Positions 25,779 through 44,850 of a stretch of DNA of 64,000 nucleotides are shown piece by piece. A program made the position numbers and the translations under genes. This DNA comes from Candidatus Norongarragalinales archaeon. GTDB lineage: Archaea; Micrarchaeota; Micrarchaeia; Norongarragalinales; Norongarragalinaceae. Each line of letters opens with the position of its first letter. Position 1 is the stretch's first letter. A model generated the notes under the pieces. It did no database searches. It saw only the letters and a list, made by a program, of their open reading frames with translations, and had not been told where the DNA came from. Location: contig JAWABJ010000001.1 of NCBI GenBank assembly GCA_038884755.1, positions 493,947 to 557,946 on the forward strand, read 5' to 3'.

Positions 25779-27047
25779 GTGGAAACCGCCAGAAAGGCAC
25801 TGCTTTTACTGTTATTGCTGGTCGTGCTTTCAAACAGTGTTTTTTCAGTGGGCATAAGGCCCGCGCGCCTCGTTTACCCCTTCCAGGAAGGAAGAGAATT
25901 GGGCATGGACTATACGATAATAAACCGCGGTCCCGTCGGCGCGCGTTTTGCGGTTTACACTTGCGGCACGTTTTTCGACAAAATCGAAATTTCAAGCGTT
26001 TCTTCAACGGTTTTTTCCGACAGGGATTGCACTGCAGCGCAGAGGAAGGTCATAGCCCAGCTTGAGAACGGCGACATTACGCTGGACGAGGCGGGCGTGT
26101 TCTTGAATCCGCGCGAGGAGAAAATGATCCAGGCGAAAATAAAACTTCCTTCGGTCGGGGGCTTCGAGCCGGGAATAGTCGAAACGAGGATAGGCGCGGT
26201 TGACTTGCCGTTGACGTTCAAGCCGGGCGAAACGGTCGTGGGCGGCATCGCAGCCGTTGAAGCGCAGTTGTGGCTGAAAGTGCCTTATCCCGGAAAGCGT
26301 TTCGTGATTTCGCCCGCCACTGAAGACGTGGAGTGGGGCAAGAAAGCGAAAGTGAGGGTTTCCGTTACGAGCGAAGGAAGCGAAGATGTGAAAAACGCTG
26401 TTTTAACCGTGGACATTCTCGACTCGCAGGGAGTGCGCAAGGACAGGATTGTTTTCGACGCCAAGGACATCGCTTCCGGAGAAAGCGTGGAGTACTCCAC
26501 GTTGTGGGACACCAAGCAAGTGGAGCCGGGCACTTACACGCTGTTGTTCAGGCTTTCTTTCGAGGGGCAGGCGGTCACCCAGGAAGCCCAGTTCAGGATA
26601 GGCGGGCTTGACGTGCGGGTTTCAAGCGTGGAAGCGCAGGCTGTGGCGAAAGGCGGGATTGCGAAGATAATAGTTTCGGCGGAAAGCAAGTGGGGAGACG
26701 CTATTCCCGGCATTTACGCCGACATTCTCGTGAACGACGCGGCCGGGAAAAGCCTGGTTTCGCTGAAAACCAGGTCGGAGGAAATAGGGCCGTTCGGAAG
26801 GTCGGTTTTGGAAGCGTTTTGGGAAACCGGAGACGCGCCTTCGGGAAAATACGACTTGCTCGTCACGCTGCATTATTCCAACAAGACTTCGGAAGGCAAG
26901 GGCGCGGTTGAAATCATGGAAAGCGTTTCGCAGCAAACGCCGGTAGAATACGTCGCTCTCGCGGTAGTAGTCATCCTGTTGATTGTAGGCGCGTGGTTTT
27001 TGAGGGGCAGGGTAAAAATCGAGCCCGAGCAGAAGAAACAGCGTTAG
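25779..27047 (+). CDS. Secreted surface protein with C-terminal TM anchor (beta-sandwich/CARDB-like repeats likely)
   Basis: GTG start, signal peptide (ALLLLLLLVVLSNSVFS), C-terminal helix (YVALAVVVILLIVGAWFL) followed by basic tail. Confidence 0.6.
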   Translation: METARKALLLLLLLVVLSNSVFSVGIRPARLVYPFQEGRELGMDYTIINRGPVGARFAVYTCGTFFDKIEISSVSSTVFSDRDCTAAQRKVIAQLENGDITLDEAGVFLNPREEKMIQAKIKLPSVGGFEPGIVETRIGAVDLPLTFKPGETVVGGIAAVEAQLWLKVPYPGKRFVISPATEDVEWGKKAKVRVSVTSEGSEDVKNAVLTVDILDSQGVRKDRIVFDAKDIASGESVEYSTLWDTKQVEPGTYTLLFRLSFEGQAVTQEAQFRIGGLDVRVSSVEAQAVAKGGIAKIIVSAESKWGDAIPGIYADILVNDAAGKSLVSLKTRSEEIGPFGRSVLEAFWETGDAPSGKYDLLVTLHYSNKTSEGKGAVEIMESVSQQTPVEYVALAVVVILLIVGAWFLRGRVKIEPEQKKQR

Positions 27048-27100: not shown

Positions 27101-27517
27101 ATGGACAAGGCGCAAACTCAGTTTTACTCCGCGGCGCTGATTGCAATTTCCTTCGCTATCCTGGCGCTCGGCATGGGCTTGCTGTCGCAAAAAAACTTTT
27201 TCAAAACCACGCTGCCCATGCACTTGAGCGTGAGCGAACCGGGAGTGCTGGGCTTCAACGTTTCCGAATCCCTCGAGTTCGGCGCAATTCCGCCCGGAGC
27301 TGGAGGAAGGAAAGTGGTTTTCATCACTAACAACTTTAACTCCGAAAAGACAATGTTCCTGCGCGCTTACGGCGGGATTGCAAGTTGGATTTCGGTTTCC
27401 CAAAACGGCGTTTCCGTACGCCCAGGCCAGACTTTGAACGTTAGCGTGGTAGCGCTCGTCCCGCCTTACGCTGCAAAAGGCGATTACTACGGCATTCTGG
27501 AAATAACGCTAGGCTGA
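27101..27517 (+). CDS. Small membrane-anchored protein of unknown function
   Basis: 138 aa; N-terminal hydrophobic helix (FYSAALIAISFAILALGMGLL), several N-x-S/T sequons. Confidence 0.45.
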   Translation: MDKAQTQFYSAALIAISFAILALGMGLLSQKNFFKTTLPMHLSVSEPGVLGFNVSESLEFGAIPPGAGGRKVVFITNNFNSEKTMFLRAYGGIASWISVSQNGVSVRPGQTLNVSVVALVPPYAAKGDYYGILEITLG

Positions 27518-33662: not shown

Positions 33663-34262
33663 ATGAAAATCGAAGAAAAAATAATGCTGCTTTTAGTTCC
33701 GATTGCTTTTGTTGCTATAATGTCCGCCGCGGTTTCGGCAGACTACGCGCAAACCACGGTGTTCTTCAACGTTCCTACTTCAACCGCATTTACCGTTACG
33801 CTTCCGGGCCAAGGTGCGGTAAGCTCCAACAGCACTCAAAACCCCAACTCTCCGCCGACCGCAAACATTGAGTTTAACGCAAGCAGTTCCACTGTCAACA
33901 ACGTAGTCCCTTGCGTTACGGGCGGCTCGTGCCAGTCCGGCGAAGGGCCGTCAGGAACGCCCATATTCCAGTATGACAACACGGGCAACGTCAACATTTC
34001 AATCCAATTGATTTTCAACTCCACGCTTCCATCGGGAGTAACCGTTCGCGCTAACAGCAGCTGGGACAACGGCGGGGTAAGCAACGGAACTGCATTCGCC
34101 GGCGACAGGCCGGTCAACGCGACTGAAAACACTACGTTGGGAACCAACATCGACTGGAACGCGGCGAGTTTTCTCAACGTTTACATGTACGCCAACTTCA
34201 GCGCGGTCGTGGGTGGAACCAGGACGACCAGGCTGCTCAACCACACGAGCGTCTCAAGCTGA
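33663..34262 (+). CDS. Small secreted N-x-S/T sequon-rich protein (199 aa)
   Basis: Signal peptide (IMLLLVPIAFVAIMSAAVSA), many N-x-S/T sequons; followed by an accessory gene, like the 1599-aa gene. Confidence 0.6.
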   Translation: MKIEEKIMLLLVPIAFVAIMSAAVSADYAQTTVFFNVPTSTAFTVTLPGQGAVSSNSTQNPNSPPTANIEFNASSSTVNNVVPCVTGGSCQSGEGPSGTPIFQYDNTGNVNISIQLIFNSTLPSGVTVRANSSWDNGGVSNGTAFAGDRPVNATENTTLGTNIDWNAASFLNVYMYANFSAVVGGTRTTRLLNHTSVSS

Positions 34263-34381
34263 GGCGCGAACACAGGGCGGGAACTTTGCTTTTTCGAAAA
34301 GCAGCCGCCCTTTCCTTGGTTTATTGTTTTTTTTGAAAAGCTAGGAATTTTCGAATTTACGGTTTTCGGTGGGTTTTAGCA

Positions 34382-35287
34382 TTGGAAGGCTTCAAGAAAA
34401 TAACGGCATTCGCGGGAATCTTTTTCTTGGGAGTGCTTCTTTTGGGCTGCGTGCAAGGCGGAGAAGCCAACTCGGCAAACGAAACGCAAAGCATACCTAC
34501 ACCAGAGCTTACAAGCGCAGAGCAAGAGCTCGTCAAATACCCTGAACTTGCGGGTTTCATCAAATCATACCAGCAGGTGGGCGCACCCGCGCAACGCCCC
34601 GACTACTTGCCCAGCATAGTCTTCTCCAAACTCCCCCCGTTTCCCAGAGACTTTTACTCTGTTGATTTGCTGGTTGAAAACGGCATTTTCAGCGACATGA
34701 AGCTCATCGAGGAAGCGTATTGGAAGCAACCCGAATTCTATCCTGAATTCGAAAGGCAGGCCGTGCTGGCGTACCAAAAGCCGCCCACCGACCGCTGGGC
34801 TGCGTTCGGAATAGGCTCGTACCCTTCGGAAGTTGGAATCTTGAGCCCGCGAAACAACGTTTTCGAAGTCAACTTTTTCATCCACACTAGCTGGCTGGTG
34901 CAAACCTACCAGGGAACTCGATTCAACTACGGCTTTCCAGCCAAAGGCGAGTTACTCAAGTCAGACTTTCCCGACGGGACGAGAAACGTGACGCAAGACC
35001 CTGAAGTGGTGGCAAAGTATTTCGACGTTGAAATAACGCCTAGGGAAATCCTTTTGGAACCGGCGTTCCCGGTTTTCGAGCCCAACTGGGTGCAGAAAAT
35101 AACGGTTAGGGTGAAAGTGAAAGACGCGCCGCCCGGAAGGTATTACATAGCAATCGGCAGCCAAAGCCCGTCCAAGGAAAAGGCGGACGAGTGGCTTTGG
35201 AAGTATAAAACGCGTTATACTGACGCTGCAAACTCTTTCGGCGGCGTGATACAGCCGTGGCTCGGCATTTTCATCGACATAACGTGA
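34382..35287 (+). CDS. Conserved accessory protein A (lipoprotein-like signal), paralogue of 44098-44850
   Basis: Signal with lipobox-like LLLGC; shares with the paralogue FPRDF, EAYW(K/R)QPE, RWAA.G.GSYP, SWLV.(S/T)YQG, EP/GPA.PVF..NWV.KI and PPG.Y blocks. Confidence 0.6.
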   Translation: MEGFKKITAFAGIFFLGVLLLGCVQGGEANSANETQSIPTPELTSAEQELVKYPELAGFIKSYQQVGAPAQRPDYLPSIVFSKLPPFPRDFYSVDLLVENGIFSDMKLIEEAYWKQPEFYPEFERQAVLAYQKPPTDRWAAFGIGSYPSEVGILSPRNNVFEVNFFIHTSWLVQTYQGTRFNYGFPAKGELLKSDFPDGTRNVTQDPEVVAKYFDVEITPREILLEPAFPVFEPNWVQKITVRVKVKDAPPGRYYIAIGSQSPSKEKADEWLWKYKTRYTDAANSFGGVIQPWLGIFIDIT

Positions 35288-35346
35288 AAACCCGATTCGC
35301 TTGTTTACCCACAAGCACTTTTAAACAACCGGGCAGTAGGGATAGT

Positions 35347-37044
35347 ATGCTAAAAGGGAGAAAGCACTCGTCAGCGGAAATCCTCCTGGTTTTGACGGCA
35401 GTTTTAGCCGGAATCGCACATTCTGAATTCGGGCAAGGGGGAATTTTCTTCGGGGTTACGGAAACCAATCCCATAGTAAACATAACCAACATCGTGTTTT
35501 CCCCAAGCCAAATAGTGCAAGGCTCGACCACAGACGTTTCAGTGTATTTGGAGAATACTGGAGGGACTGCCGCGAACACTACCGTCAACATAACGATTTT
35601 CTATTCCAACGGCAGCGTTGCAGACGTGATTCAATACGACCCGACGGTCGTCGCGTCCGGGGGAACGCTGCAGATAATCAAGAGTTATAACACAGACTCT
35701 CGGCCGCTGGGCACGTACACGGCGAATGGCACGGGCTACTACTCGTTCAACTCAAGCAATTTTGAAACCAACACGTTCAGCACCACGTTCCAAATAATCG
35801 CCGCCCCGCCTGAAGGCGGTGGGGGCGGAGGAGGGACGGGCGGAGACGTTCGCATTCCCGCTCCGACCACGATTCCGCCGGAATTGAAGCCCGCGCCTGG
35901 AGGAGGGCTGGAGTTCACGAGGACAACGGTTTTGAAGGAAGTTACTCCAGGGACGAATGCGATTGAAAGCATTGGACTTAAAAACAACGAGGAAAACGAG
36001 CAGCTGGTGAGGGTGAATTTCGACAAGGCGCCTTGGGTGAGGGCGAGGAGAAGCGAATTCATCATGCTTGCGAAAGAAGAACAAACAGTCAATTTGCTCA
36101 TAGACATTCCCGAAAACGCTAAGCCTGGAGACTATCTCGCGCAAATGAGCTTGGAAACCGACTCGGGAGTCGCCAGCGAATTCATGGCCATACGCGTGAA
36201 GCCCAAAATCCAAAGCCCAATAGCAACAAAAACCATTTTCCTCGACCGCAACCAGCGTTTCACCCTCGTCAAAATACAAGTTGAAAACCCGTCAGACCAA
36301 CTGATTCCAAAGGTTTTGGTTGAAGAAGAGATTCCCCGCGCGCTCGCGACCGAAGAAAGCAAGCTTCGCTTTCTGGACAAGCCGGGGGTCGTCACGAACG
36401 ACGCGCCGTTATCCGTAGCGTGGACTTTCAGCGACATTCTCCCGCAAGAGACTGACACCATCTCCTACCAGATAAACACTTTGCTCGGGGAGTATTCCAC
36501 TTACGCCTACTGGCCGATAAAACAAGTGGTCATTCCCGACGAGGTGAGTTTCGAAAGCTTGGTGAGGCTGGTCGAACTGCACTCGCCCACGTTCGCGCCT
36601 GGCGAGGAGAAGGAAGTCACGGCAAGAATTTACTACACGGGCTTGGACCCGCTTCCGATAAGCGCTTCGCTTAGCCTTCCCGAGTCATTCCAAGTCACTC
36701 CTTCTGCTATAGAACGCACGCTCCAGCCCGCGTCGTTCCAAAACTTCGTTTTCAAAGTGAAAGCCCCGCAGGAAAAACCCGGCACGTACATAGCCACGTT
36801 TTACCTCAACTCGCAGGCGGGAAGAATGCAGAGGACTACCACGCTCATCCTGGCCGCGCCCGAGGCAGGCAGCGAAGGAATACTGTATTTGGCAGGGGGG
36901 CTGGCGATAGTAATCCTGCTGGTTATAGTGTTCACTCTGCGCAACAAGGGGGACGGCGTGCAGAAGGAAGAGATTGAAGACATCATAGACCGGGAGACCT
37001 ACTTGCGCGAAGTCAAGGGAATACTCAAGAAAGGAAGGCCTTGA
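35347..37044 (+). CDS. Secreted surface protein with CARDB-like N-terminal domain, Gly-rich linker and C-terminal TM anchor
   Basis: Signal peptide (ILLVLTAVLAGIAHS), N-glycosylation sequons, poly-Gly linker (EGGGGGGGTGG), C-terminal helix (GILYLAGGLAIVILLVIVFTL). Confidence 0.65.
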   Translation: MLKGRKHSSAEILLVLTAVLAGIAHSEFGQGGIFFGVTETNPIVNITNIVFSPSQIVQGSTTDVSVYLENTGGTAANTTVNITIFYSNGSVADVIQYDPTVVASGGTLQIIKSYNTDSRPLGTYTANGTGYYSFNSSNFETNTFSTTFQIIAAPPEGGGGGGGTGGDVRIPAPTTIPPELKPAPGGGLEFTRTTVLKEVTPGTNAIESIGLKNNEENEQLVRVNFDKAPWVRARRSEFIMLAKEEQTVNLLIDIPENAKPGDYLAQMSLETDSGVASEFMAIRVKPKIQSPIATKTIFLDRNQRFTLVKIQVENPSDQLIPKVLVEEEIPRALATEESKLRFLDKPGVVTNDAPLSVAWTFSDILPQETDTISYQINTLLGEYSTYAYWPIKQVVIPDEVSFESLVRLVELHSPTFAPGEEKEVTARIYYTGLDPLPISASLSLPESFQVTPSAIERTLQPASFQNFVFKVKAPQEKPGTYIATFYLNSQAGRMQRTTTLILAAPEAGSEGILYLAGGLAIVILLVIVFTLRNKGDGVQKEEIEDIIDRETYLREVKGILKKGRP

Positions 37045-37063
37045 AAGCAACGCCATTTTTAAA

Positions 37064-37102
37064 CTCGCTTTGCGTTCCTATTTTTATAAAAAGCGAAGCG
37101 AG
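37064..37102. promoter_or_regulatory. Inverted repeat CTCGCTT...AAGCGAG enclosing a palindromic TATA-like core (TTTTTATAAAAA), upstream of the MinD-like gene
   Basis: 7-bp perfect arms at 37064-37070 and 37096-37102; followed by an A-run rather than a T-run, so more operator/promoter-like than terminator-like. Confidence 0.25.
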
Positions 37103-37149
37103 AAAAAAGGCCTGCAACTCCCACGGTTGAGAGGGGAGACGAAAAGGGT

Positions 37150-37959
37150 TTGTTATTCATGGCTTTGGGAGATTCGAAAAAAGGAACCCGCGTGATAGGG
37201 GTTTTGAGCGGTAAAGGCGGCGTCGGGAAAAGCGTCACTTCCGTCAACATTTCCGCTTTGCTCAACCGAATGGGAAAACAGACTGTTTTGGTGGACGGCG
37301 ATTTAAGCAACCCAAGCGTTGGGTTGCATTTGGGACTTGCGTACAATGCGATTGGATTGAACGACTGCCTGCTGGGAAAACACAAGGTTTCAGACGCTAT
37401 AGTCATACAGCCGCAAACGGGAATGCGCGTTTTGCCCGCTTCGTTGCGTTACAAGCGCGATTTTTCTCTCAAGCAATTGAGCAGGGTCATGGGCGAATTG
37501 GAAGGATACGATTTCGTGATTATAGACTCTCCGCCGGGGTTGACTGAAGACGCTTGGCAGATAATGAGCGTTTGCGACCAGGTTTTGCTCATCACCACGC
37601 CCGACGTGCCTTCCACTACAGCCGCAGCAAAAACCCTCGAGTTGTGCAAAGAACGCGGGACCGAAGCGATTGGCGTGATAATCAACCGAGTCACGAAAGC
37701 CAAGTACGAGCTTACGCCCCGCGAAATTTCGTCCATGATTGAAGCGCCGGTCATCGGCGAGATTCCCGAGGATTACGCCGTTCCCGCGAGCATAGCCGCG
37801 AGAAACCCGTTAGTGCTGTACAAGCCGGACGCGCCTGCGGCGAGAAGCTTCGGCAGGCTTACAAAACGCATTGTTGGGGACGAGGGTTCTTTCGAAACGC
37901 CTTCCGAAGGCTTTATCGCCAAAATCATTGCCGCAATCAAGCGCCTTTTCGGAAGGTAA
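37150..37959 (+). CDS. MinD/ParA-family P-loop ATPase
   Basis: Deviant Walker A GKGGVGKS, Walker B-like VIIDSPPG; embedded between surface-protein genes. Confidence 0.8.
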   Translation: MLFMALGDSKKGTRVIGVLSGKGGVGKSVTSVNISALLNRMGKQTVLVDGDLSNPSVGLHLGLAYNAIGLNDCLLGKHKVSDAIVIQPQTGMRVLPASLRYKRDFSLKQLSRVMGELEGYDFVIIDSPPGLTEDAWQIMSVCDQVLLITTPDVPSTTAAAKTLELCKERGTEAIGVIINRVTKAKYELTPREISSMIEAPVIGEIPEDYAVPASIAARNPLVLYKPDAPAARSFGRLTKRIVGDEGSFETPSEGFIAKIIAAIKRLFGR

Positions 37960-38034
37960 GCTTCAAATTCGGCTTGTTTCGAAAAAACAAAACGGTTTTT
38001 ATATTTTCAGAAGGTTAAAACATAGGGGTTTCTG

Positions 38035-39291
38035 TTGGGTTTGTTGAGGGGGCAAGCCAAGGCGTTTATCGTCTTGCTTTTCGCGGTAGCCGGAGTTTTG
38101 CTTTTCGCGTTCAACGCCAGCGGGCCGTCTAGCCTTGGGCAGAGCGACGGGATAGAAAACTGGACGGTAACGCTTTCCGCCAGCGAGCAAGGCGAAAGCT
38201 CGTTCAACTATACTTCCCTGCCGGAAAACCGAATGGGCGTGTTGCGCGTAATCAAAGACTCGACTAACGAAGACGTCCTGGACTTCGAAAGCGGGCAAAC
38301 GTGGGTTTATTGCGCTTCGTGCAACCTAAGCGAAAGCACTTACACTATTTTCTACCAAACTCCCGCGCCTGCGCCTTCCCCAAGTCCCTTACCGTCACCC
38401 AGTCCAACGCCAAAATCCAGTCCTTCACCAGAACCTAGCCCAACGCCATTCCCAAGCCCGGAAATTTCTCCGGAACCATCGCCTTCTCCGAGTCCCTCGC
38501 TTGAACCAACGCCAATTCCAACCAAACCGCCTTCAGGCCAGTGCGGAGTCATAACTCAAAACACTGTTTTAGACTCCGACGTTTTTTTCAACTCTGACGG
38601 CGGAGTTTGCTTCGACATTCGCGGCAACAACGTGCAATTGGACTGCAACGGGCATTCCATAATGGGGAACGGCAAGGGAATCGCCGTTTACGCCACTCAA
38701 GCCGAAAACATCGCGGTTAAAAATTGCAGGATAACCAATTTCGGGTACGGCATTCTTGTTGAAGGCAACGCGGGTACGCCGGCGTTCAGCGGGTTTGCGG
38801 TAGAAAACAACTTTTTGTCCGGCATTAAGAGCGTGGGCATTGGTTTTAGGGGCGCTTTCAACTCCGTTTCCGTGTCTAACAACACGCTCGAATCCACGGG
38901 GGAGCGGGGAATTTGGATTGACGGCTTGAACGGCTTTGAATCAAAAGGCGTTTTAGTCTCTTCAAACCGCATCTCCGCCTGCGAAAACGCGCTTTTGCTG
39001 GATGCGATAGGCGGGGTTGTCGCATCTGGAAACTTTGTCGAAAAATGCAGCAACGGCGTCACGCTTTCGTCGGCGTTCAAAAACACCGTTTCGAAAAACA
39101 CCATAGGCGTTTCGAACGCGGCTTTTTGGATTGAAAGCGAAGACGCGAACGAAAACGTTTTCTCGGAAAACTCCGGCGCGGCTGCGGTGGCGGTCAAGCG
39201 CCACCCGCGTTCTCAAAACCAATTCAACCAAAACTCTGTCGCTGCGCAGTTCAACGAGCAGGAGTTTGAAGAAACGCAGATAGAGGGCTGA
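38035..39291 (+). CDS. Secreted protein with Pro/Ser-rich linker and right-handed parallel beta-helix repeats
   Basis: TTG start, signal anchor (AFIVLLFAVAGVLLFAF), PAPAPSPSPLPSPSPTPKSSPSPEPSPTPFPSPEISPEPSPSPSPS linker, then repeated N-x-[IV]-x-x-N/G beta-helix-like units. Confidence 0.65.
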   Translation: MGLLRGQAKAFIVLLFAVAGVLLFAFNASGPSSLGQSDGIENWTVTLSASEQGESSFNYTSLPENRMGVLRVIKDSTNEDVLDFESGQTWVYCASCNLSESTYTIFYQTPAPAPSPSPLPSPSPTPKSSPSPEPSPTPFPSPEISPEPSPSPSPSLEPTPIPTKPPSGQCGVITQNTVLDSDVFFNSDGGVCFDIRGNNVQLDCNGHSIMGNGKGIAVYATQAENIAVKNCRITNFGYGILVEGNAGTPAFSGFAVENNFLSGIKSVGIGFRGAFNSVSVSNNTLESTGERGIWIDGLNGFESKGVLVSSNRISACENALLLDAIGGVVASGNFVEKCSNGVTLSSAFKNTVSKNTIGVSNAAFWIESEDANENVFSENSGAAAVAVKRHPRSQNQFNQNSVAAQFNEQEFEETQIEG

Positions 39292-39293
39292 AA

Positions 39294-42200
39294 ATGAAGA
39301 AAACGCTTCTTTTAGCAATCGCTTTTTTCCTTCTAGCCCAAAACGCTTATGCGGTCATAAACGAGTACAACGCCGATTACGCCAACAGCGGGTATTTGAA
39401 CGTCACGGGTTACAATCACACTAACGGCGTTAATTCGGCAACCAACTTTTCCGACGACATTTACTTCGGGCTCAACGACTCGAATGCGCACGTTTACGCA
39501 AACAAATCGCCTTTCTTGACGGTGTGCGGCGTTGACAACGCCGACGCGACGATACCGTTCTGCAGGATTTTCAATTACACTGGCGAAAGCGTTACAAACA
39601 GGACGGCGACGGACATAGGAAGTAGTGCGGCAGAGTGGTACGTCTTGAAAGGAAACCCGTTTACCAACGAGTTGTTCTTGTGCATAAGCGATGCTGCCGA
39701 CGATTTGAAGTGCCAGAATTTCAACGGCAGCACCTGGACTTCAACCTTCACCATGACCACGAACGACACTACGGTCGACGCGCGCAGTTTCGACATCAAC
39801 TTCGAAAGCAAGAGCGGAAGGGCGGTAATTGTTTACAGCGTGAACGTCGCAGACACTCTCGCGTACAGGTATTGGAACCAAAGCAGTTGGAGCAAGGAAT
39901 ACTGGCTCACCATGACGAGCGCGGCTACTCTATCGTGGGTAAGGCTGGTGGCAGACCCGAACTCGAACAACATGACGGTCGTAGCGCAAAACTCTAGGAC
40001 CGACGGACAGATTTTCACCGCAAGGTGGAACGGCACGTCTTCCACCTGGTCTGCCAGCCAAAACGTTACCGCAGGCACTGCAGCCGGTTCCGACTCTTCG
40101 GCAGTGGGCATACAGGCATTCGACGCGGCGTACAACAACGAAAGCGCCGCGCTCATAGTGTACAGCAACAATGCCACGGTTGGAGCGGTATTCGCGAAAA
40201 TGTTTTGGCCCAACCAAACGCTCGACGCGCAAGCGCTCGTGGGGTACGGAGGAGCAGACCAAGTGAAGTACGTTTCAGCCGCGTCAATGCCCGGCTCTTC
40301 GAGAATAGGGTATTGTTGGATTGACAACGGAGGAGGCACGACTACGGATGATTTGTTGTGCAACGAGTGGGAGTATTCCAGAAACTTCACGCAAGCAGAA
40401 CCAGACTCCACCATAGACGACGACACTTCAACCCAAGGGCGGCAGATGGACGTGGTTGCGATAGAAGAAATCGGCGGCTGGGCCGTTCCCTACGCCGACA
40501 ACGGCGTCGACATGCCTACGATAGCAAGGTGTTTGAGCAAATCCGACTGCCAAGCAGGCACTTGGGGAACCAACACTATGTTCACTGGACCTAGCCCTGC
40601 CGCAGACATGAGGCACGTCCGCGCGGACACGAGCGTCATGAACAAAAGCCAGGCTATAGTAGGATGGAAGAACATCGATACGACCGCGCCTTCGGAAACG
40701 TTCTGGGGAATGTTTTACTGTCATTCCGGCGGCTGCGCCTTGAAACACGACACTGATTCGATTCAACCGGCAACCGCTTCCGCAGCGTTGTTCGCAACTT
40801 TCGACGTCGCGAAAGACGAGTACAGCAATTACACGCTCGAAACTTGGTTCAACTCCACGCCCACCACCGACGTTCCCGCCGGCGCAACGATAGAAAGCGT
40901 GAACGCCACGGTGGAATTCAAATCGGCGTTTCCTGGCAATTTTTCCACGTACATCTACAACTGGAGCAACTCGCAGTGGAACTTCTGCCAGTCGCAAGTG
41001 GTAACTGCGAATACTGAATTGTTCTTGAACTGCAGCGTTTGCTCGAGCGGGTGCTTGGTTACCGGCGACCCGGTAAACTTTACGGACAGCGTGGGCAACG
41101 CACCCAAGGTGATACGCATTTCATTGAACGAAACCATTCACAATCTCGCCATCAATGAATCCAACGTTAGCATTGATTACGTGAATTTCAACGTTACTTA
41201 CAGCAATCCACAAGCCAACGCAGCACTGCGTCTAGCCCAATTCCGCTTGTGGGAAAGCTCTTCGACAACCATCGGCCAAGGCGCTCTCACCGATTTGAAG
41301 TGCAATACTACTAGCTCGTTCGGAGCCAACATCCTCATCACACCAGGAGGAATTTCCTGCAACAACACCGCCCCTTCGAAAAGTTATAGGGCGGAAATCC
41401 GCGTGTGCAACGACGGCGCGAGCGGCGCGAACCAAACGACTTTCGACTACATCAACCACAGGTTTCTTTCAACGCAATACTTGGGCGCTTTGACTGCAAA
41501 CGACTGCGGGCACGGAGACAACGGAAGCGCTTGGAACGGCACGCTATGCAATTCTTACAGCGAAAGCTCTTTGCTCACAGTGCAAATCGCGAACGAAAGC
41601 GCTGGAGACAAGCATTACCTCCCGAGCGGAGACGGTTCCACGCGCGACGATAATACTTGCGAGTATTACGCGTATCGCTTTACTACCGGCGCGCCCGACT
41701 GGGTTATCACAGACAACAGCAGGATTAACACCACCGGCGCGTCCAACGGCTCCAATCCCGCGCCAACAGAAAACGCGAACCTAAACGTTACGTACAGCGA
41801 AACCGCGTTCTCGTTGTACTACCCGTCGACCGGCTGCACTTCAGGAAAAGGGTCTGACGGAAGGCTTAGGGCGAGATACTACAACGAAACTTGCGTCTTG
41901 TCCGGAAGCCACGGGTGCGACGTTCAAAACGCCACGTTCCAAAACTTCAACGACACCACCACCAAAGCCAACGTTACCATAACCGCGGCAAGCACTGACA
42001 CGTTGTACTACAATTTCACGGGAATAAACGGAATGCAAGGAAACATCTATTGGACCAACAACGTTACAAACGGCGGCCAGGACACGTTTTTAGTGCATTT
42101 CTGGGATTGGGTTGACGGAAGGTGGGAGCAAGTCGACAGCAGGACTAACGTCGCCCCGACTACCAACTTGATAAACCTTTCAAGCTTGAGCACCAACTAC

Positions 42201-44093
42201 CTTTCCGGAGGGTTTCTCAACGTTTCCTTAAACGGAACTACAGAAGGGGTTGACACAACGACGTTCTTGTACGACATTTACTACCACGGCGACCACTCCG
42301 ACAAGTGCGCCCGGTGTTACTTCCAACCCGCGACCGCGAATTCGGTGAACGTAGCATGCGAAGGGCAGACTTCCTCAACTTCGTTTTTGGACTTGCAAAA
42401 CTTGGGAAGCGTAATAGAAGCCTGGAAAGTGTACTTGTCCAGCGCTCTGCCCGAGCAGACGCCCGGCGGACCTCGGGCCCTTGCGGGCTACTACCACGGC
42501 GCAAGTTCGACTGCGCCATACTTAAACCCGGCGTACAGGGTTTGGAGCAGCGCGGGCTGGGGTTCGGAAACCAACGCGACTACCCTCGACGCTGGAAGCG
42601 ACATAGAATGGCTCGTAAATAAATGCGACGTCGCCAACGCGAATTGCATCATGGCGACGCTTGACGACGAGGGGGAAGTGCAAGCGCAGGCGTATACTGC
42701 TGGAGCGTGGGGGAGCGTCGTTGACGTTGCCCCGAACATTGGAACCACGAACGACCAGTCTCGCGGCTTTGACGTGGCGTTCGAGCAAACGCGCGGGTGG
42801 GGTTTGGTCATTGCAGGAAACAACTCGGCCCGCCCGTACTACCGCATCTGGTACCCCGAAAACAATACTTGGACTGGAGTGGAGCAGTTTCCCAACAGCG
42901 CTTGCGGGGCAAGCGGAACGCCGATTTGGCTTGACGCGGTTTCCAAGCCGGGCTCGAACGAGATTCTGACAGCGTACAGGGACGATGCCGGGAGAGTGTG
43001 CGGCTACGTTTGGGACGGGAGCAGCTGGGGCAACAGCCGAAGCATAAACAACGGTTCTGCAGAAACGACGCAAAAAACGGTTTGCGCGGCTTACGAAGAG
43101 TCGAGCGGAAAGGGAATAGTGTTTTACGAAGAGCAATCGTCGGCCAACTTGAACTACGCAAACTGGACCGGAAGCGCGTGGGAAGTGCCTGCAGCAATAT
43201 GCAACCCCGCTTGCGTTGCCGGAAGCGAATTCGTTTGGTTCGCTTGCGCGTCAATGCCTGGGACCAACCGCATAATGTGGGCTTCTCAAGAGCATAGCGT
43301 CGGCGCGGAAAAGGGAGATTTGCTGAAAACCCTTTCCTACTCCTCCGGAGAGCCGGTTTCGAAAACCGTTATCGACTGGAGCGAATACGTTTCTAAAATC
43401 AACTCAAGAATGAAAACTCCGAAGTTGAGCTACGTCACCGGCACGCTGGTCGCTCGCCAGTGGGACAGGGGCTTCGGCACTGAAGCCAATTTCCCGAGCA
43501 CGATTGAAGACGATTTGAGCGACAGGCCCATGGTTGACGTTGCGTATATAGGCGGAAGCGGGCACGCAATGATGGTTTACGCTGCCGACACCAACTTCCC
43601 CAACTACAGGACTTGCACTAGTTCTGCGAATTGCCAAGCGGGCACGTGGGGAAGCGCGAGCGCAACGACGGCAAGCGCCTGCGCAACGGGCGCGCAAGTG
43701 GATTTGGTGCGGCTTTACGCTGATTCGGCGACCAACGACACCATGCTGTTGTACTCTACGCAGCACGCGAACGAGCCGATTTGCGCGCAGTTGTACAACG
43801 GAACGACCGCGACGTGGGGAAGCGTCACCAACCTTGAAGACACCAACCGTTTTCTCGCGAACGCGAGGCCTTTCGACGTTTTCTTCTACAACGCCAGCGC
43901 AAGCGGCGGGTCGCTCGCCATGTTCATGAACGACAGCAGCGCCACGCACCTGACGCTGAGCACGACGCAGCAAACTTGGAACGCAAGCGTAGAGCAGTAC
44001 GAGCATTCTTACGCGTGGCTGTGGGCGAACTACACCAGCTACGACTCTTCAACCCACGAAAACTATTTGGTGAGCAACACTTCGACGAGCTGA
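39294..44093 (+). CDS. Giant secreted surface protein (1599 aa), N-x-S/T sequon-rich, paralogue of 1559-7021; conserved module in C-terminal third plus a degenerate N-terminal copy
   Basis: Signal peptide (MKKTLLLAIAFFLLAQNAYA); C-terminal module about aa 1090-1533 near-identical in blocks to the 1820-aa protein (IMATLDDEGEVQAQA, GSVVDVAPNIGTTND, RGWGLVIAGNN, PYYRIWYPENNTW, CASMPGTNRIMWAS, NCQAGTWGSASATTA). Confidence 0.85.
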   Translation: MKKTLLLAIAFFLLAQNAYAVINEYNADYANSGYLNVTGYNHTNGVNSATNFSDDIYFGLNDSNAHVYANKSPFLTVCGVDNADATIPFCRIFNYTGESVTNRTATDIGSSAAEWYVLKGNPFTNELFLCISDAADDLKCQNFNGSTWTSTFTMTTNDTTVDARSFDINFESKSGRAVIVYSVNVADTLAYRYWNQSSWSKEYWLTMTSAATLSWVRLVADPNSNNMTVVAQNSRTDGQIFTARWNGTSSTWSASQNVTAGTAAGSDSSAVGIQAFDAAYNNESAALIVYSNNATVGAVFAKMFWPNQTLDAQALVGYGGADQVKYVSAASMPGSSRIGYCWIDNGGGTTTDDLLCNEWEYSRNFTQAEPDSTIDDDTSTQGRQMDVVAIEEIGGWAVPYADNGVDMPTIARCLSKSDCQAGTWGTNTMFTGPSPAADMRHVRADTSVMNKSQAIVGWKNIDTTAPSETFWGMFYCHSGGCALKHDTDSIQPATASAALFATFDVAKDEYSNYTLETWFNSTPTTDVPAGATIESVNATVEFKSAFPGNFSTYIYNWSNSQWNFCQSQVVTANTELFLNCSVCSSGCLVTGDPVNFTDSVGNAPKVIRISLNETIHNLAINESNVSIDYVNFNVTYSNPQANAALRLAQFRLWESSSTTIGQGALTDLKCNTTSSFGANILITPGGISCNNTAPSKSYRAEIRVCNDGASGANQTTFDYINHRFLSTQYLGALTANDCGHGDNGSAWNGTLCNSYSESSLLTVQIANESAGDKHYLPSGDGSTRDDNTCEYYAYRFTTGAPDWVITDNSRINTTGASNGSNPAPTENANLNVTYSETAFSLYYPSTGCTSGKGSDGRLRARYYNETCVLSGSHGCDVQNATFQNFNDTTTKANVTITAASTDTLYYNFTGINGMQGNIYWTNNVTNGGQDTFLVHFWDWVDGRWEQVDSRTNVAPTTNLINLSSLSTNYLSGGFLNVSLNGTTEGVDTTTFLYDIYYHGDHSDKCARCYFQPATANSVNVACEGQTSSTSFLDLQNLGSVIEAWKVYLSSALPEQTPGGPRALAGYYHGASSTAPYLNPAYRVWSSAGWGSETNATTLDAGSDIEWLVNKCDVANANCIMATLDDEGEVQAQAYTAGAWGSVVDVAPNIGTTNDQSRGFDVAFEQTRGWGLVIAGNNSARPYYRIWYPENNTWTGVEQFPNSACGASGTPIWLDAVSKPGSNEILTAYRDDAGRVCGYVWDGSSWGNSRSINNGSAETTQKTVCAAYEESSGKGIVFYEEQSSANLNYANWTGSAWEVPAAICNPACVAGSEFVWFACASMPGTNRIMWASQEHSVGAEKGDLLKTLSYSSGEPVSKTVIDWSEYVSKINSRMKTPKLSYVTGTLVARQWDRGFGTEANFPSTIEDDLSDRPMVDVAYIGGSGHAMMVYAADTNFPNYRTCTSSANCQAGTWGSASATTASACATGAQVDLVRLYADSATNDTMLLYSTQHANEPICAQLYNGTTATWGSVTNLEDTNRFLANARPFDVFFYNASASGGSLAMFMNDSSATHLTLSTTQQTWNASVEQYEHSYAWLWANYTSYDSSTHENYLVSNTSTS

Positions 44094-44097
44094 GGAA

Positions 44098-44850
44098 ATG
44101 AATGCGAAACTCATTTTCCTGGCGTTGGGAGCGGTTGCGATAGCTGCTGGAGTGTTTTTGCTTACGCAAACGCCTGGCCAGGCGCCGGCGTCCTGCGACG
44201 CTTCGGCCCGTAACTCCCTTCCCCCGAATACGTTCGACAACCTTCCCGACTTCCCGCGGGATTTTTGCGAGAAGGTTGGCGATTTGAGAAGCAGGAAAAT
44301 CACGCTGCAAGGGTTTTCTGAGCTGGGAGAAGCGTACTGGCGCCAGCCGGAATTGCAGCCTAATTTCGAAAGCTATGCAATCCAAGCCATGCTCAACCCG
44401 CCGGAAGGGCGTTGGGCGGCTAACGGCTACGGCTCTTACCCTGCCGACTTCGTGGTGGAATTGAAGCACGGACAGTCTTGGGAAGGAGTGTTTTTCTTCA
44501 AAAGCTCTTGGCTGGTCGAATCTTATCAGGGAATAGCGTTAAACCACATTATCCTTCACGCGAACGAAAGCGTTTTCAAAGGAAAGCAAAGCATTCGCGT
44601 AAGCTATTCGCCCGACGAGTTCCTGCTCGGGCCCGCTTACCCGGTGTTTGACGAAAACTGGGTTGAAAAAATAAGCTTGGGAATCAAATTGGATGAAGGC
44701 ACGCCTCCCGGCGAGTATTTGGTTTTGCTGAACGTGAAAAGCCCGAAAAGAAACGGCGAGTGGGCCGGCGCATATCCTCATTATTTCGACGCTTCGTCGT
44801 TCGGGTTGCAGAAGCCGTTCTTGAGAATAAGGCTGTTTGTAAAGAGTTAA
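44098..44850 (+). CDS. Conserved accessory protein A' (signal anchor), paralogue of 34382-35287
   Basis: 250 aa; starts 5 nt after the giant gene stop; shares conserved blocks with 34382-35287. Confidence 0.6.
   Translation: MNAKLIFLALGAVAIAAGVFLLTQTPGQAPASCDASARNSLPPNTFDNLPDFPRDFCEKVGDLRSRKITLQGFSELGEAYWRQPELQPNFESYAIQAMLNPPEGRWAANGYGSYPADFVVELKHGQSWEGVFFFKSSWLVESYQGIALNHIILHANESVFKGKQSIRVSYSPDEFLLGPAYPVFDENWVEKISLGIKLDEGTPPGEYLVLLNVKSPKRNGEWAGAYPHYFDASSFGLQKPFLRIRLFVKS

What the first reader, a model, noticed from the sequence alone, without database searches (positions are those of the whole stretch)
33663..44850. Candidate undescribed cell-surface module: glycoprotein-plus-accessory gene pairs flanking a MinD/ParA ATPase
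Seven co-oriented plus-strand genes form a compact locus: small secreted glycoprotein (33663), accessory A (34382), CARDB-like anchored surface protein (35347), MinD/ParA ATPase (37150), beta-helix protein with PS-rich linker (38035), giant 1599-aa glycoprotein (39294) and accessory A' (44098). The glycoprotein-then-accessory pair occurs twice, and a cytoplasmic positioning ATPase sits among exported proteins. That combination suggests an assembled or spatially organised surface structure (adhesin/fibre/sheath-like). I do not recognise it as a described system.
Basis: partly seen in the sequence, partly recalled or inferred. Interest (0 to 1): 0.7.

Follow-up and report, generated by a model that had tools for sequence, protein, structure and literature searches.

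The report
Conserved DPANN archaeal surface-adhesin display module
This is a real, conserved and so far undescribed gene set of tiny symbiotic (DPANN) archaea that most likely builds, anchors and positions a sugar-coated surface fibre or docking scaffold carrying giant, fast-changing adhesins, which would make it a candidate for how these cells hold on to other cells.

Summary
The seven co-oriented genes exist as described. The window comes from a Candidatus Norongarragalinales (Micrarchaeota, DPANN) genome. The two "accessory" proteins are paralogs (37% identity, E 3e-38).

New findings:
- The small glycoprotein G1 is a stand-alone copy of a ~170-aa domain. In relatives this domain forms the extreme C-terminus of the giant proteins. 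In the window's 1599-aa protein it is present but split by a 485-aa insertion.
- Across 37 loci from Micrarchaeota and Iainarchaeota, 44 of 45 G1-domain genes are followed by an accessory gene, either directly or via the small G1 gene.
- A triad of G1, accessory and a bitopic multi-Ig protein (G3) occurs in 34 of 37 loci. In Micrarchaeota, MinD follows G3 in 16 of 17 loci.
- G3's short cytoplasmic tail carries an invariant Arg motif. MinD keeps a membrane-targeting helix.
- In structure models, G1 weakly resembles donor-strand filament subunits (Csu, TasA, cannulae, threads). The accessory weakly resembles PapD-like chaperones and WxLIP.
- No family involved has a Pfam, NCBIfam or PDB sequence match, except MinD and the NEW3 Ig domains.

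Best reading: a membrane-tethered, chaperone-assisted fibre or docking scaffold for variable adhesins, placed by MinD. The closest analogues are WxL clusters and chaperone-usher pili. It is a member of neither.

The parts
33663..34262 (+). G1: stand-alone 'G1 domain' protein. It has a signal peptide (aa 1-26), a conserved N-terminal extension (aa 27-38, nt 33741-33776) and a beta-sandwich domain. It is sequon-rich (5.0 per 100 aa). It is the candidate fibre or scaffold subunit.
34382..35287 (+). accA: membrane-tethered partner of G1. It has an N-terminal anchor with lipobox-like LLGC, a helical lobe (aa 45-132) and a PapD/MSP-like Ig sandwich (aa 140-300).
35347..37044 (+). G3: bitopic protein made of a signal peptide, about four Ig-like (NEW3/CARDB-type) domains, a TM helix (aa 507-535, nt 36865-36951) and a cytoplasmic tail (nt 36952-37041). 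The tail carries the conserved motif R-x-x-Y-L-x-x-[VI]-K-x-x-[IL]-K. It is the candidate stalk or base that links the outside structure to MinD.
   Evidence: All 17 orthologs hit NEW3. R549 in the tail is invariant across orthologs that are 26-35% identical. It follows accA in 20 loci, and the divergent class G3b follows accA in 14 more.
37150..37959 (+). G4: archaeal MinD-type ATPase. It has the deviant Walker A SGKGGVGKS (nt 37207-37233) and a C-terminal amphipathic helix resembling a membrane-targeting sequence (nt 37906-37956).
   Evidence: Walker A and the C-terminal helix are conserved in orthologs. MinD lies 25-212 nt downstream of G3 in 16 of 17 Micrarchaeota loci that have sequence room.
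38035..39291 (+). G5: an N-terminal hydrophobic anchor or signal, a ~90-aa domain that forms the N-terminus of giant proteins in relatives, a Pro/Ser linker and a right-handed beta-helix. It has no G1 domain. It is an accessory, lineage-specific cargo-type protein. Its stop lies 2 nt before the G6 start.
   Evidence: (67% identity to the N-terminus of the L005 giant; beta-helix domains sit inside the L001 giant).
39294..44093 (+). G6: giant sequon-rich protein (59 sequons) with two ~450-aa repeat-like regions (about aa 50-500 and 1060-1535). Its G1-type C-terminal domain is split into nt 42294-42452 (aa 1001-1053) and nt 43908-44087 (aa 1539-1598) by a 485-aa insertion (nt 42453-43907). It is the candidate variable adhesin.
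   Evidence: The terminal motif YAWLWANY...YLVSNTS matches the family. Colinear HMM fragments score E 2e-6 and 2e-9. The L005 giant, from a genome whose accA is 82% identical to the window's, has the same domain uninterrupted (E 8e-15).
44098..44850 (+). accA': a shorter paralog of accA, dedicated to the giant protein. Its start lies 4 nt after the G6 stop.
   Evidence: Giant-associated copies form their own clades and have a median length of 249 aa against 310 aa for G1-associated copies. The nearest neighbour from another locus has the same partner type in 34 of 36 cases.

Best explanation
The locus encodes a cell-surface assembly built around one reusable ~170-aa beta-sandwich, the G1 domain.

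Proposed mechanism:
1. G1 is exported by Sec, cleaved after Ala26 and N-glycosylated.
2. On the outer face of the membrane it is captured by accA, a membrane-tethered partner with a PapD/MSP-like Ig domain. Capture is probably by beta-strand complementation.
3. G1 copies then link head-to-tail. Each inserts its conserved N-terminal extension (alternating T-V-F-V) into the neighbour's sandwich. The result is a short fibre or scaffold.
4. The giant proteins (here G6) carry the same domain at their extreme C-terminus but lack the conserved donor extension. They therefore join as terminal, variable adhesin subunits. Each is handled by its own accA' paralog.
5. G3, a stalk of about four Ig domains with one TM helix, forms the base.
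6. G3's short conserved cytoplasmic tail is read by the membrane-binding MinD ATPase, which decides where on the cell the structure sits, for example at a contact site with another cell.

Shown here: the domain sharing, the pairing rule, the synteny, the conserved tail and the MinD features.

Inferred: strand complementation or polymerisation, the accA-G1 and G3 tail-MinD contacts, glycosylation, and the adhesin role.
For: - Shared domain. G1 aligns to the C-terminal ~90-160 aa of giants in other loci (HMM E values 1e-9 to 1e-29). The common terminal motif is [VA]W[LC]WA[DN][FY]...L.H.S. The domain is split in G6 and contiguous in the L005 giant.
- Pairing rule. Of 45 G1-domain genes in 37 loci, 35 are followed directly by accA and 9 by small G1 then accA. 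Giant-linked and G1-linked accA copies form separate old clades.
- Triad. G1-accA-G3/G3b occurs in 34 of 37 loci. The other three loci end at a contig edge.
- MinD. It lies directly after G3 in 16 of 17 loci. Loci with the other tail type (G3b, tail ending LLGL) have no adjacent MinD.
- G3 tail. R549 is invariant although the ectodomains are only 26-35% identical.
- MinD features. It keeps the deviant Walker A and a C-terminal amphipathic helix.
- Donor-like extension. T31 is present in 28 of 29 stand-alone G1 proteins, V33 in 23, F/W35 in 29 and V/I/L37 in 29. These positions are not conserved in the giants' copies, while the domain core is conserved in both.
- Sequon density per 100 aa. G1 4.7, giants 4.7, accA 0.6, cytoplasmic MinD 0.4. 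This fits exposed subunits and a non-exposed handler.
- Literature. Archaeal MinD homologues position non-division cargo in Haloferax (10.1101/2020.04.03.021790).
Against: - accA has one Ig domain plus a helical lobe, not the two-lobed PapD architecture.
- There is no usher-like barrel.
- No complex could be modelled.
- Iainarchaeota keep the triad without an adjacent MinD, so MinD is not essential to the core.
- Some giants have N-terminal anchor-like sequences. This fits membrane-held proteins as well as fibre tips.
- There are no expression, proteomic or imaging data for any member.
Confidence: 0.4

Rival explanations
1. Non-polymeric docking system that works like a WxL cluster. The G1 domain is simply a cell-surface anchoring module. 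accA (and perhaps G3) is the membrane-held receptor that binds and stabilises it, so giant adhesins are displayed singly. The small G1 protein would be a filler, a regulator or a co-receptor. MinD-G3 would still organise placement.
Against: It does not explain why the N-terminal extension is conserved only in stand-alone G1. It does not explain why G1's best structural neighbours are polymerising subunits. No member of the G1 or accA families matches the Pfam WxL or WxLIP models.
Confidence: 0.3
2. S-layer or canopy genes. G1 and/or the giants would form the outer glycoprotein lattice. G3 would be the membrane stalk (SlaB-like). accA would be an anchoring or assembly factor.
For: The predicted exported proteins are heavily sequon-rich. 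G3 is a multi-domain stalk with a C-terminal TM helix, like SlaB. Cryo-ET of a cultivated micrarchaeon shows envelope elements with three globular densities reaching toward the membrane (PMC11329633).
Against: The identified micrarchaeal S-layer protein belongs to another family (PF05123; 10.1101/2021.04.28.441871), and nothing here matches it. The giants differ in domain content even between genomes whose accA is 82% identical. This fits adhesins better than a lattice. No known S-layer system needs a MinD.
Confidence: 0.1
3. accA is an enzyme, not a binder. It would process, cross-link or glycan-trim the free C-terminus or glycans of G1 domains, acting as a sortase-like or glycan-processing maturation factor.
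For: The G1 domain is always at the extreme C-terminus and ends in a conserved motif. accA has invariant acidic, polar and aromatic residues (D90, Y113, Q116, E118, W236, Y279; R138 is nearly invariant) clustered in the helical lobe.
Confidence: 0.08
4. There is no system. Unrelated surface-protein genes would merely sit next to the housekeeping MinD.
For: The intergenic regions contain TATA-like boxes, so several transcription units are possible. MinD is a common archaeal gene.
Against: The order is conserved in 37 loci with unrelated flanks, including ribosomal, mevalonate and ACD genes. The G3 tail type co-varies with MinD presence. The domain is shared between G1 and the giants.
Confidence: 0.04

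Closest known systems
WxL surface-protein clusters of Firmicutes (small WxL, large WxL, WxLIP = DUF916-DUF3324-TM; PMC10599100)
   Different: There is no sequence relation to the WxL, WxLIP_PGBD or WxLIP_HBD models for G1 or accA. The organisms here are archaea without peptidoglycan. The partner is anchored by its N-terminus or a lipobox. A second bitopic protein and a MinD ATPase are part of the module.
Chaperone-usher pili, especially archaic Csu and the ECP system with two chaperones (EcpB, EcpE)
   Same: G1 resembles the subunit fold and accA resembles a PapD-like Ig partner fold. The adhesin consists of variable domains plus a C-terminal subunit-type domain. The alternating hydrophobic N-terminal extension is found only on the polymerising subunit. 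The gene order is subunit, then chaperone-like gene, then a large membrane protein. The adhesin has a dedicated second 'chaperone'.
   Different: There is no outer membrane and no usher barrel. accA has one Ig domain plus a helical lobe and is membrane-tethered. There are no PapD_N, PapD_C, Usher or Fimbrial Pfam hits. A cytoplasmic ATPase is attached, whereas chaperone-usher assembly needs no ATP.
Archaeal donor-strand filaments: Sulfolobus threads (Saci_0406), Pyrobaculum bundling pili, Pyrodictium cannulae (CanA/CanX), haloarchaeal Tafi
   Same: They are Sec- or Tat-exported, N-glycosylated beta-sandwich subunits of similar size. They appear among the best structural neighbours of G1.
   Different: Cannula assembly is described as chaperone-free (10.1101/2024.12.30.630787). 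No chaperone or usher could be assigned in the thread gene cluster (PMC9715654). None has a paired membrane-tethered Ig partner, giant proteins ending in the subunit domain, or a MinD. There is no sequence match to TasA/Peptidase_M73 or DUF1102.
ParA/MinD cargo positioning: archaeal MinD4 (motility machinery), bacterial TadZ/CpaE (pilus), FlhG, BcsQ
   Same: G4 is a bona fide archaeal MinD-type ATPase with a C-terminal membrane-targeting-like helix. It is genetically tied to a surface machine through a protein with a short conserved Arg-containing peptide. Such a peptide is the usual kind of partner motif for this family (family knowledge; motif).
   Different: The presumed cargo is a single-pass protein whose bulk is extracellular. 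No MinE/MinC-like or ParB-like partner is present. The interaction is inferred only.
SlaA/SlaB S-layer pair of Sulfolobales
   Same: A large glycosylated outer protein is encoded next to a smaller membrane-anchored stalk protein made of beta-sandwich domains.
   Different: There is no sequence or family match. The giants are hypervariable. The shared C-terminal domain also exists as a stand-alone protein. An extra accA family and a MinD are present.

Membership tests
Chaperone-usher pilus systems | Periplasmic chaperone with two Ig-like lobes (Pfam PapD_N + PapD_C) | tested here: not met
Chaperone-usher pilus systems | Outer-membrane usher beta-barrel (Pfam Usher) | tested here: not met
   No Usher hit in any locus protein. 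G3 is a single-pass protein made of NEW3-type Ig domains.
Chaperone-usher pilus systems / donor-strand filaments in general | Subunit with an incomplete Ig-like fold that is completed by a neighbour's N-terminal donor strand | tested here: inconclusive
WxL clusters | WxL domain (Pfam PF13731, dual Trp-x-Leu motif) at the C-terminus of small and large proteins | tested here: not met
   No WxL hit in 34 G1-family members at E <= 1. The terminal motif is W[LC]WA[DN][FY]...L.H.S, not dual W-x-L.
WxL clusters | WxLIP partner (DUF916/WxLIP_PGBD + DUF3324/WxLIP_HBD + TM helix) | tested here: not met
WxL clusters | Cluster logic: a small protein equal to the shared domain, a large protein with that domain at its C-terminus, and a membrane-anchored Ig partner | tested here: met
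Archaeal MinD (TIGR01969) | Deviant Walker A with signature lysine, full-length match to the MinD model, C-terminal amphipathic membrane-targeting helix | tested here: met
   SGKGGVGKS is present. TIGR01969 scores E 1.5e-56 and 191.4 bits, just under the 201.75 cut-off. The best PDB matches are archaeal MinDs, E 2e-36. An amphipathic C-terminus is conserved in orthologs. Membrane binding itself was not tested.
TasA / bundling-pilus / cannula (CanA, DUF1102) filaments | Sequence membership (Peptidase_M73/TasA or DUF1102) and a SipW-type signal peptidase in the locus | tested here: not met
Archaeal S-layer proteins (PF05123 S_layer_N; SlaA/SlaB) | Match to S-layer family models | tested here: not met
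   No hit for any of the seven proteins. The micrarchaeal S-layer protein described in 10.1101/2021.04.28.441871 carries PF05123.
Type IV pili / archaella | Class III signal peptide on the subunit and a PilB/PilC-type ATPase and platform in the locus | tested here: not met
   G1 has a Sec/SPI-type signal ending A-x-A|D. No T2SSE or T2SSF gene lies in the window module. Some giants and G5 have RG[YSQ]F-type N-termini, which remain ambiguous.

The most novel reading that the evidence does not exclude
This is the first chaperone-assisted donor-strand-exchange fibre pathway in Archaea. A membrane-tethered PapD-fold chaperone (accA) hands pilin-like G1 subunits and giant tip adhesins to a single-pass Ig-stalk base (G3). 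The position of that base on the cell is set from the cytoplasm by a MinD ATPase reading its tail. In other words, it would be a MinD-positioned host-attachment organelle of DPANN symbionts.
Probability: 0.2. Interest if true: 0.9.

Novelty: new variant of a known kind. Interest (0 to 1): 0.68.

Why it matters
- **Host attachment in DPANN.** DPANN archaea are thought to live attached to other cells, yet the molecules that mediate attachment are almost unknown. This module gives a concrete, widespread candidate in Micrarchaeota and Iainarchaeota. It consists of a reusable docking or polymerising domain, giant shuffled adhesins that plug into it, a dedicated membrane-tethered handler, and a base wired to a positioning ATPase.
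- **Three uncharacterised protein families.** The G1 domain, accA (430 cluster representatives) and G3/G3b have no annotation, so defining them would annotate hundreds of 'hypothetical' genes.
- **A testable MinD cargo.** G3 and its invariant-Arg tail peptide would be a rare, directly testable cargo for an archaeal MinD. The functions of archaeal MinDs are largely open.
- **A possible archaeal fibre chaperone.** If the fibre reading holds, it would challenge the view that archaeal donor-strand filaments assemble without chaperones.

Tried and rejected
- No interface could be tested.
- **AFDB library unavailable.** The afdb50 library could not be used. Fold comparison is therefore limited to the PDB.
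- **Sequence and profile searches empty.** Searches of G1, accA and G6 against Pfam, NCBIfam and PDB gave nothing significant. The best accA profile hit was CfaE at E 0.06, which is not significant.
- **Not viral.** The accA family was not found on IMG/VR contigs. One locus (P0032) sits among many tiny ORFs and could lie on a mobile element.
- **Attenuator not supported.** A hairpin plus T8 run after the G1 stop looked like an attenuator. The hairpin is no more stable than shuffled controls (z -0.35), so only the T-run is noted.
- **No direct G1-G6 alignment.** BLAST of G1 against G6 found nothing. The relation emerged only through other giants and a family HMM.
- **Rejected readings.** S-layer, type IV pilus and cell-division readings were considered and set aside (see the membership tests). 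Archaeal division-site placement in Haloferax is attributed to the unrelated Dip system (PMC13228585).
- **Bacterial promoter and terminator scan.** It found fewer sites than in shuffled sequence.
Full report
**1. Observation**

The window carries seven co-oriented plus-strand ORFs at the stated coordinates.

| Gene | Coordinates | Main features |
|---|---|---|
| G1 | 33663-34262 | 199 aa, Sec-type signal peptide, 10 sequons |
| accA | 34382-35287 | 301 aa, N-terminal anchor ending in LLGC |
| G3 | 35347-37044 | 565 aa, NEW3/NPCBM_assoc domain, C-terminal TM helix aa 507-535, 30-aa tail |
| G4 | 37150-37959 | archaeal MinD |
| G5 | 38035-39291 | Beta_helix/NosD domains, Pro/Ser linker |
| G6 | 39294-44093 | 1599 aa, 59 sequons, no family or PDB match |
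| accA' | 44098-44850 | 250 aa |

- For G4, TIGR01969 scores E 1.5e-56 and 191 bits against a cut-off of 201.75. Its nearest solved relatives are the archaeal MinDs 1hyq, 1ion and 1g3q.
- accA and accA' are paralogs (37% identity, E 3e-38).
- An exact match to NCBI proteins QXR53_02980 and QXR53_02985 places the window in a 714-kb contig of a Candidatus Norongarragalinales archaeon. This order belongs to the Micrarchaeia, DPANN.
- The flanks are ordinary: ADP-forming acetyl-CoA synthetase and a 2-hydroxyacid dehydrogenase upstream, CorA downstream.

**2. What the two 'glycoproteins' have in common**

- BLAST of G1 against G6 finds nothing.
- G1 does align to the extreme C-terminal ~90-160 residues of the giant proteins of related loci.
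- A family alignment defines a ~170-aa 'G1 domain'. Its motifs are T.V.F..P...SFT...PG, FN, CQ, PIF.Y.NTGN, LP.GV.V and [VA]W[LC]WA[DN][FY]...L.H.S, the last within a few residues of the stop codon.
- G6 ends in YAWLWANYTSYDSSTHENYLVSNTSTS.
- A family HMM matches G6 in two colinear pieces. HMM positions 60-120 match aa 1001-1053 (E 2e-6). Positions 122-191 match aa 1539-1598 (E 2e-9).
- G6 therefore has the domain, split by a 485-aa insertion.
- L005 is the relative whose accA is 82% identical to the window's. Its giant has the domain uninterrupted (aa 1309-1454, E 8e-15).
- The giants differ greatly upstream of this domain. They carry propeller-like repeats, beta-helix, Laminin-G, FG-GAP or Gly-rich regions.
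- G5's N-terminal domain and its beta-helix are pieces found inside giants elsewhere. The cargo part is therefore being shuffled quickly.

**3. Synteny**

I gathered 36 further loci by exact-protein look-ups and one genome scan. I scanned them with HMMs built here.

- **Pairing.** Of 45 G1-domain genes, 35 are directly followed by an accA-family gene. Nine (mostly giants) are followed by the small G1 gene and then accA.
- **Two layouts.** One is giant - G1 - accA - G3 - MinD. The other is giant - accA' plus G1 - accA - G3 - MinD, which is the window's type.
- **G3.** A G3-type protein follows accA in 34 of 37 loci, and the other three end at contig edges. Twenty loci carry G3 proper. Fourteen, mostly Iainarchaeota-type, carry a divergent class, G3b, of 619-782 aa. 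G3b also has a C-terminal TM helix, and its tail ends in LLGL.
- **MinD.** It lies 25-212 nt after G3 in 16 of 17 loci with room for it. Loci with G3b have no adjacent MinD.
- **Flanks differ between genomes.** They include ribosomal genes, mevalonate genes and ACD, so the order is maintained by selection.
- **Family size.** accA has 430 cluster representatives at 50% identity, all single-domain proteins of 186-373 aa. G1 has 34 detectable stand-alone members, labelled Micrarchaeota, Norongarragalinales or Diapherotrites where named.
- **No viral contig carries accA**.

**4. Protein features bearing on mechanism**

*accA*
- It is always membrane-tethered, either by a positively charged N-terminus plus TM helix or by a lipobox-like [AGS]C (15 of 57 copies).
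- Its AF2 model (pLDDT 86) has a helical lobe (aa 45-132) that carries most of the invariant residues, followed by an Ig sandwich (aa 140-300).

*G1*
- Its AF2 model also has pLDDT 86.
- Foldseek independently ranks CanX, CfaB and Csu first. However, its best E is 0.014 and TM-scores are 0.4 or less.
- These are leads, not proofs, because Ig-like sandwiches match at this level.

*The N-terminal extension of G1*
- Residues just after the signal-peptidase site form an alternating pattern that is nearly invariant in the 29 stand-alone G1 proteins. T31 is present in 28, V33 in 23, F/W35 in 29 and V/I/L37 in 29.
- This pattern is not conserved in the giants' copies, whereas the domain core from S42-F43 onward is conserved in both.
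- In the monomer model this segment is not a strand.
- This is what a donor strand on polymerising subunits, absent from terminal adhesin subunits, would look like.

*Sequon density*

| Family | Median sequons per 100 aa |
|---|---|
| G1 | 4.7 |
| Giants | 4.7 |
| G3 | 1.2 |
| accA | 0.6 |
| Cytoplasmic MinD | 0.4 |

accA is predicted to be outside the cell but does not look like an exposed glycoprotein. This fits a handler that sits under the canopy.

*accA paralogs*
- Giant-linked accA' copies (median 249 aa) form clades separate from G1-linked accA (median 310 aa).
- The nearest neighbour from another locus has the same partner type in 34 of 36 cases. This indicates long-standing cognate pairs.

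**5. The MinD link**

- G3 orthologs share only 26-35% identity, yet their ~30-45-aa cytoplasmic tails keep the motif R-x-x-Y-L-x-x-[VI]-K-x-x-[IL]-K. The Arg (R549) is invariant in 17 sequences.
- All 17 have NEW3-type Ig domains outside the membrane.
- The adjacent MinDs keep the deviant Walker A and an amphipathic C-terminal helix.
- Tail type and MinD adjacency co-vary. The G3 tail goes with MinD, and the G3b LLGL tail goes without it.
- Members of the ParA/MinD family are typically regulated by short basic peptides of their partners (family knowledge).
- In Haloferax, a MinD homologue positions the motility machinery rather than the divisome (10.1101/2020.04.03.021790). Divisome placement there is attributed to the unrelated Dip system (PMC13228585).
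- I therefore infer that MinD reads the G3 tail and sets where the external structure sits. This contact is not shown.

**6. Most likely mechanism, and rivals**

*Best reading (confidence about 0.4)*
- G1 subunits are captured by tethered accA through strand complementation.
- They link head-to-tail into a short fibre or scaffold.
- Giants join through their C-terminal G1 domain as variable terminal adhesins, each with its own accA'.
- G3 is the base, and MinD positions it.

*Rivals*
- **Non-polymeric docking, about 0.3.** The parts and contacts are the same but without polymerisation. This is a docking system like WxL clusters, whose published description matches the architecture here closely: a small protein made only of the shared domain, a large protein with that domain at its C-terminus, and an Ig-like TM-anchored partner predicted to insert a beta-hairpin (PMC10599100).
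- **S-layer component, about 0.1.** The known micrarchaeal S-layer protein is a PF05123 protein (10.1101/2021.04.28.441871), and no protein here matches that model.
- **accA as a maturation enzyme, about 0.08.**
- **Coincidental clustering, about 0.04.** This is contradicted by the synteny.

**7. Comparison with known systems, and novelty**

- By sequence, none of G1, accA or G3 belongs to WxL/WxLIP, PapD/usher/fimbrial, TasA/DUF1102 or S-layer families.
- The module works like a blend of WxL clusters and chaperone-usher pili.
- It differs in five ways. It is archaeal. Its handler is membrane-tethered. It has a single-pass Ig-stalk base instead of an usher. Giant shuffled cargos are present. 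A MinD ATPase is attached.
- Archaeal cannulae are described as chaperone-free (10.1101/2024.12.30.630787). No chaperone or usher could be assigned in the thread gene cluster (PMC9715654).
- I found no paper describing this module.
- I rate it a new variant of a known kind: surface adhesin display or fibre systems, built from new families.

**8. Caveats**

- All functional statements rest on sequence, synteny and single-chain structure predictions.
- ORFs in the related loci were called mechanically. They agree with the database gene calls wherever both exist.
- Two loci are labelled Chloroflexi and Thaumarchaeota. These labels probably reflect binning errors.
- The complex-level prediction that would discriminate the two leading models could not be run.

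Noticed in passing
window 1559-7021 (-): A second giant secreted-type protein (1820 aa) with a Laminin_G_3 domain (E 1.5e-18). It has no G1-type C-terminal domain and no accA gene next to it. The genome therefore carries giant surface proteins both inside and outside the module.
   Followed up: partly
window 25779-27047 (+) and 27101-27517 (+): Two adjacent ORFs (422 and 138 aa) give weak matches to the G3 HMM and sub-threshold hits to Ig-type models, including WxLIP_HBD (E 0.0024). The same pair sits at the equivalent place in the relative L005/L006. They may be further Ig-like envelope proteins.
   Followed up: partly
window 34275-34334: A GC-rich hairpin followed by a T-rich tract containing a T8 run lies right after the G1 stop. 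It would suit partial termination after a highly expressed subunit gene. The hairpin is no more stable than shuffled sequence (z -0.35).
   Followed up: yes
window 38035-38120 (G5 N-terminus); giants in L001, L002, L013, L023: Several giants and G5 start with a basic stretch, R-G-[Y/S/Q]-F, and then about 20 hydrophobic residues. This could be a signal anchor or a class III (prepilin-like) signal. Which one it is would change how the giants are held on the cell.
   Followed up: no
L040 11995-13532 and L041 11897-13476 (Diapherotrites/Iainarchaeota loci): Downstream of G3b there is a conserved ~100-aa TM + coiled-coil protein. On the other strand lie four conserved small membrane proteins, one with an HExxH-like motif (HEIVH / HEITH). 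L041 also has KaiC/FlaH-like ATPases, a T2SSF gene and a typical archaeal type IV pilin (KGQSALEYLMTYGW) a few kb away. These may replace or complement MinD in that lineage.
   Followed up: partly
L033 9550-11154 (Candidatus Burarchaeum): Two tandem MinD paralogs follow G3 instead of one.
   Followed up: no
L007 8769-9747: A HEPN/nucleotidyltransferase toxin-antitoxin pair is inserted between the giant gene and its accA' partner. It is the only case where the pair is separated by more than 1 kb.
   Followed up: no
locus of P0032 (JGI 3300075153, no DNA held): An FG-GAP giant (1002 aa), a 208-aa gene and accA (316 aa) sit among dozens of ORFs of 45-150 aa, which resembles a virus or mobile element. 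A scan of IMG/VR contigs found no accA relative.
   Followed up: partly
L022 and L036: Contigs carrying the module are filed under a 'Chloroflexi bacterium' MAG and a 'Thaumarchaeota archaeon' MAG. Given the otherwise strictly DPANN distribution, these are probably mis-binned contigs.
   Followed up: no
window 39291-39294 and 44093-44098: The G5 stop and the G6 start are 2 nt apart. The G6 stop and the accA' start are 4 nt apart. This suggests that G5-G6-accA' form one translationally coupled unit, while TATA-like boxes precede G1, G3, G4 and G5.
   Followed up: partly
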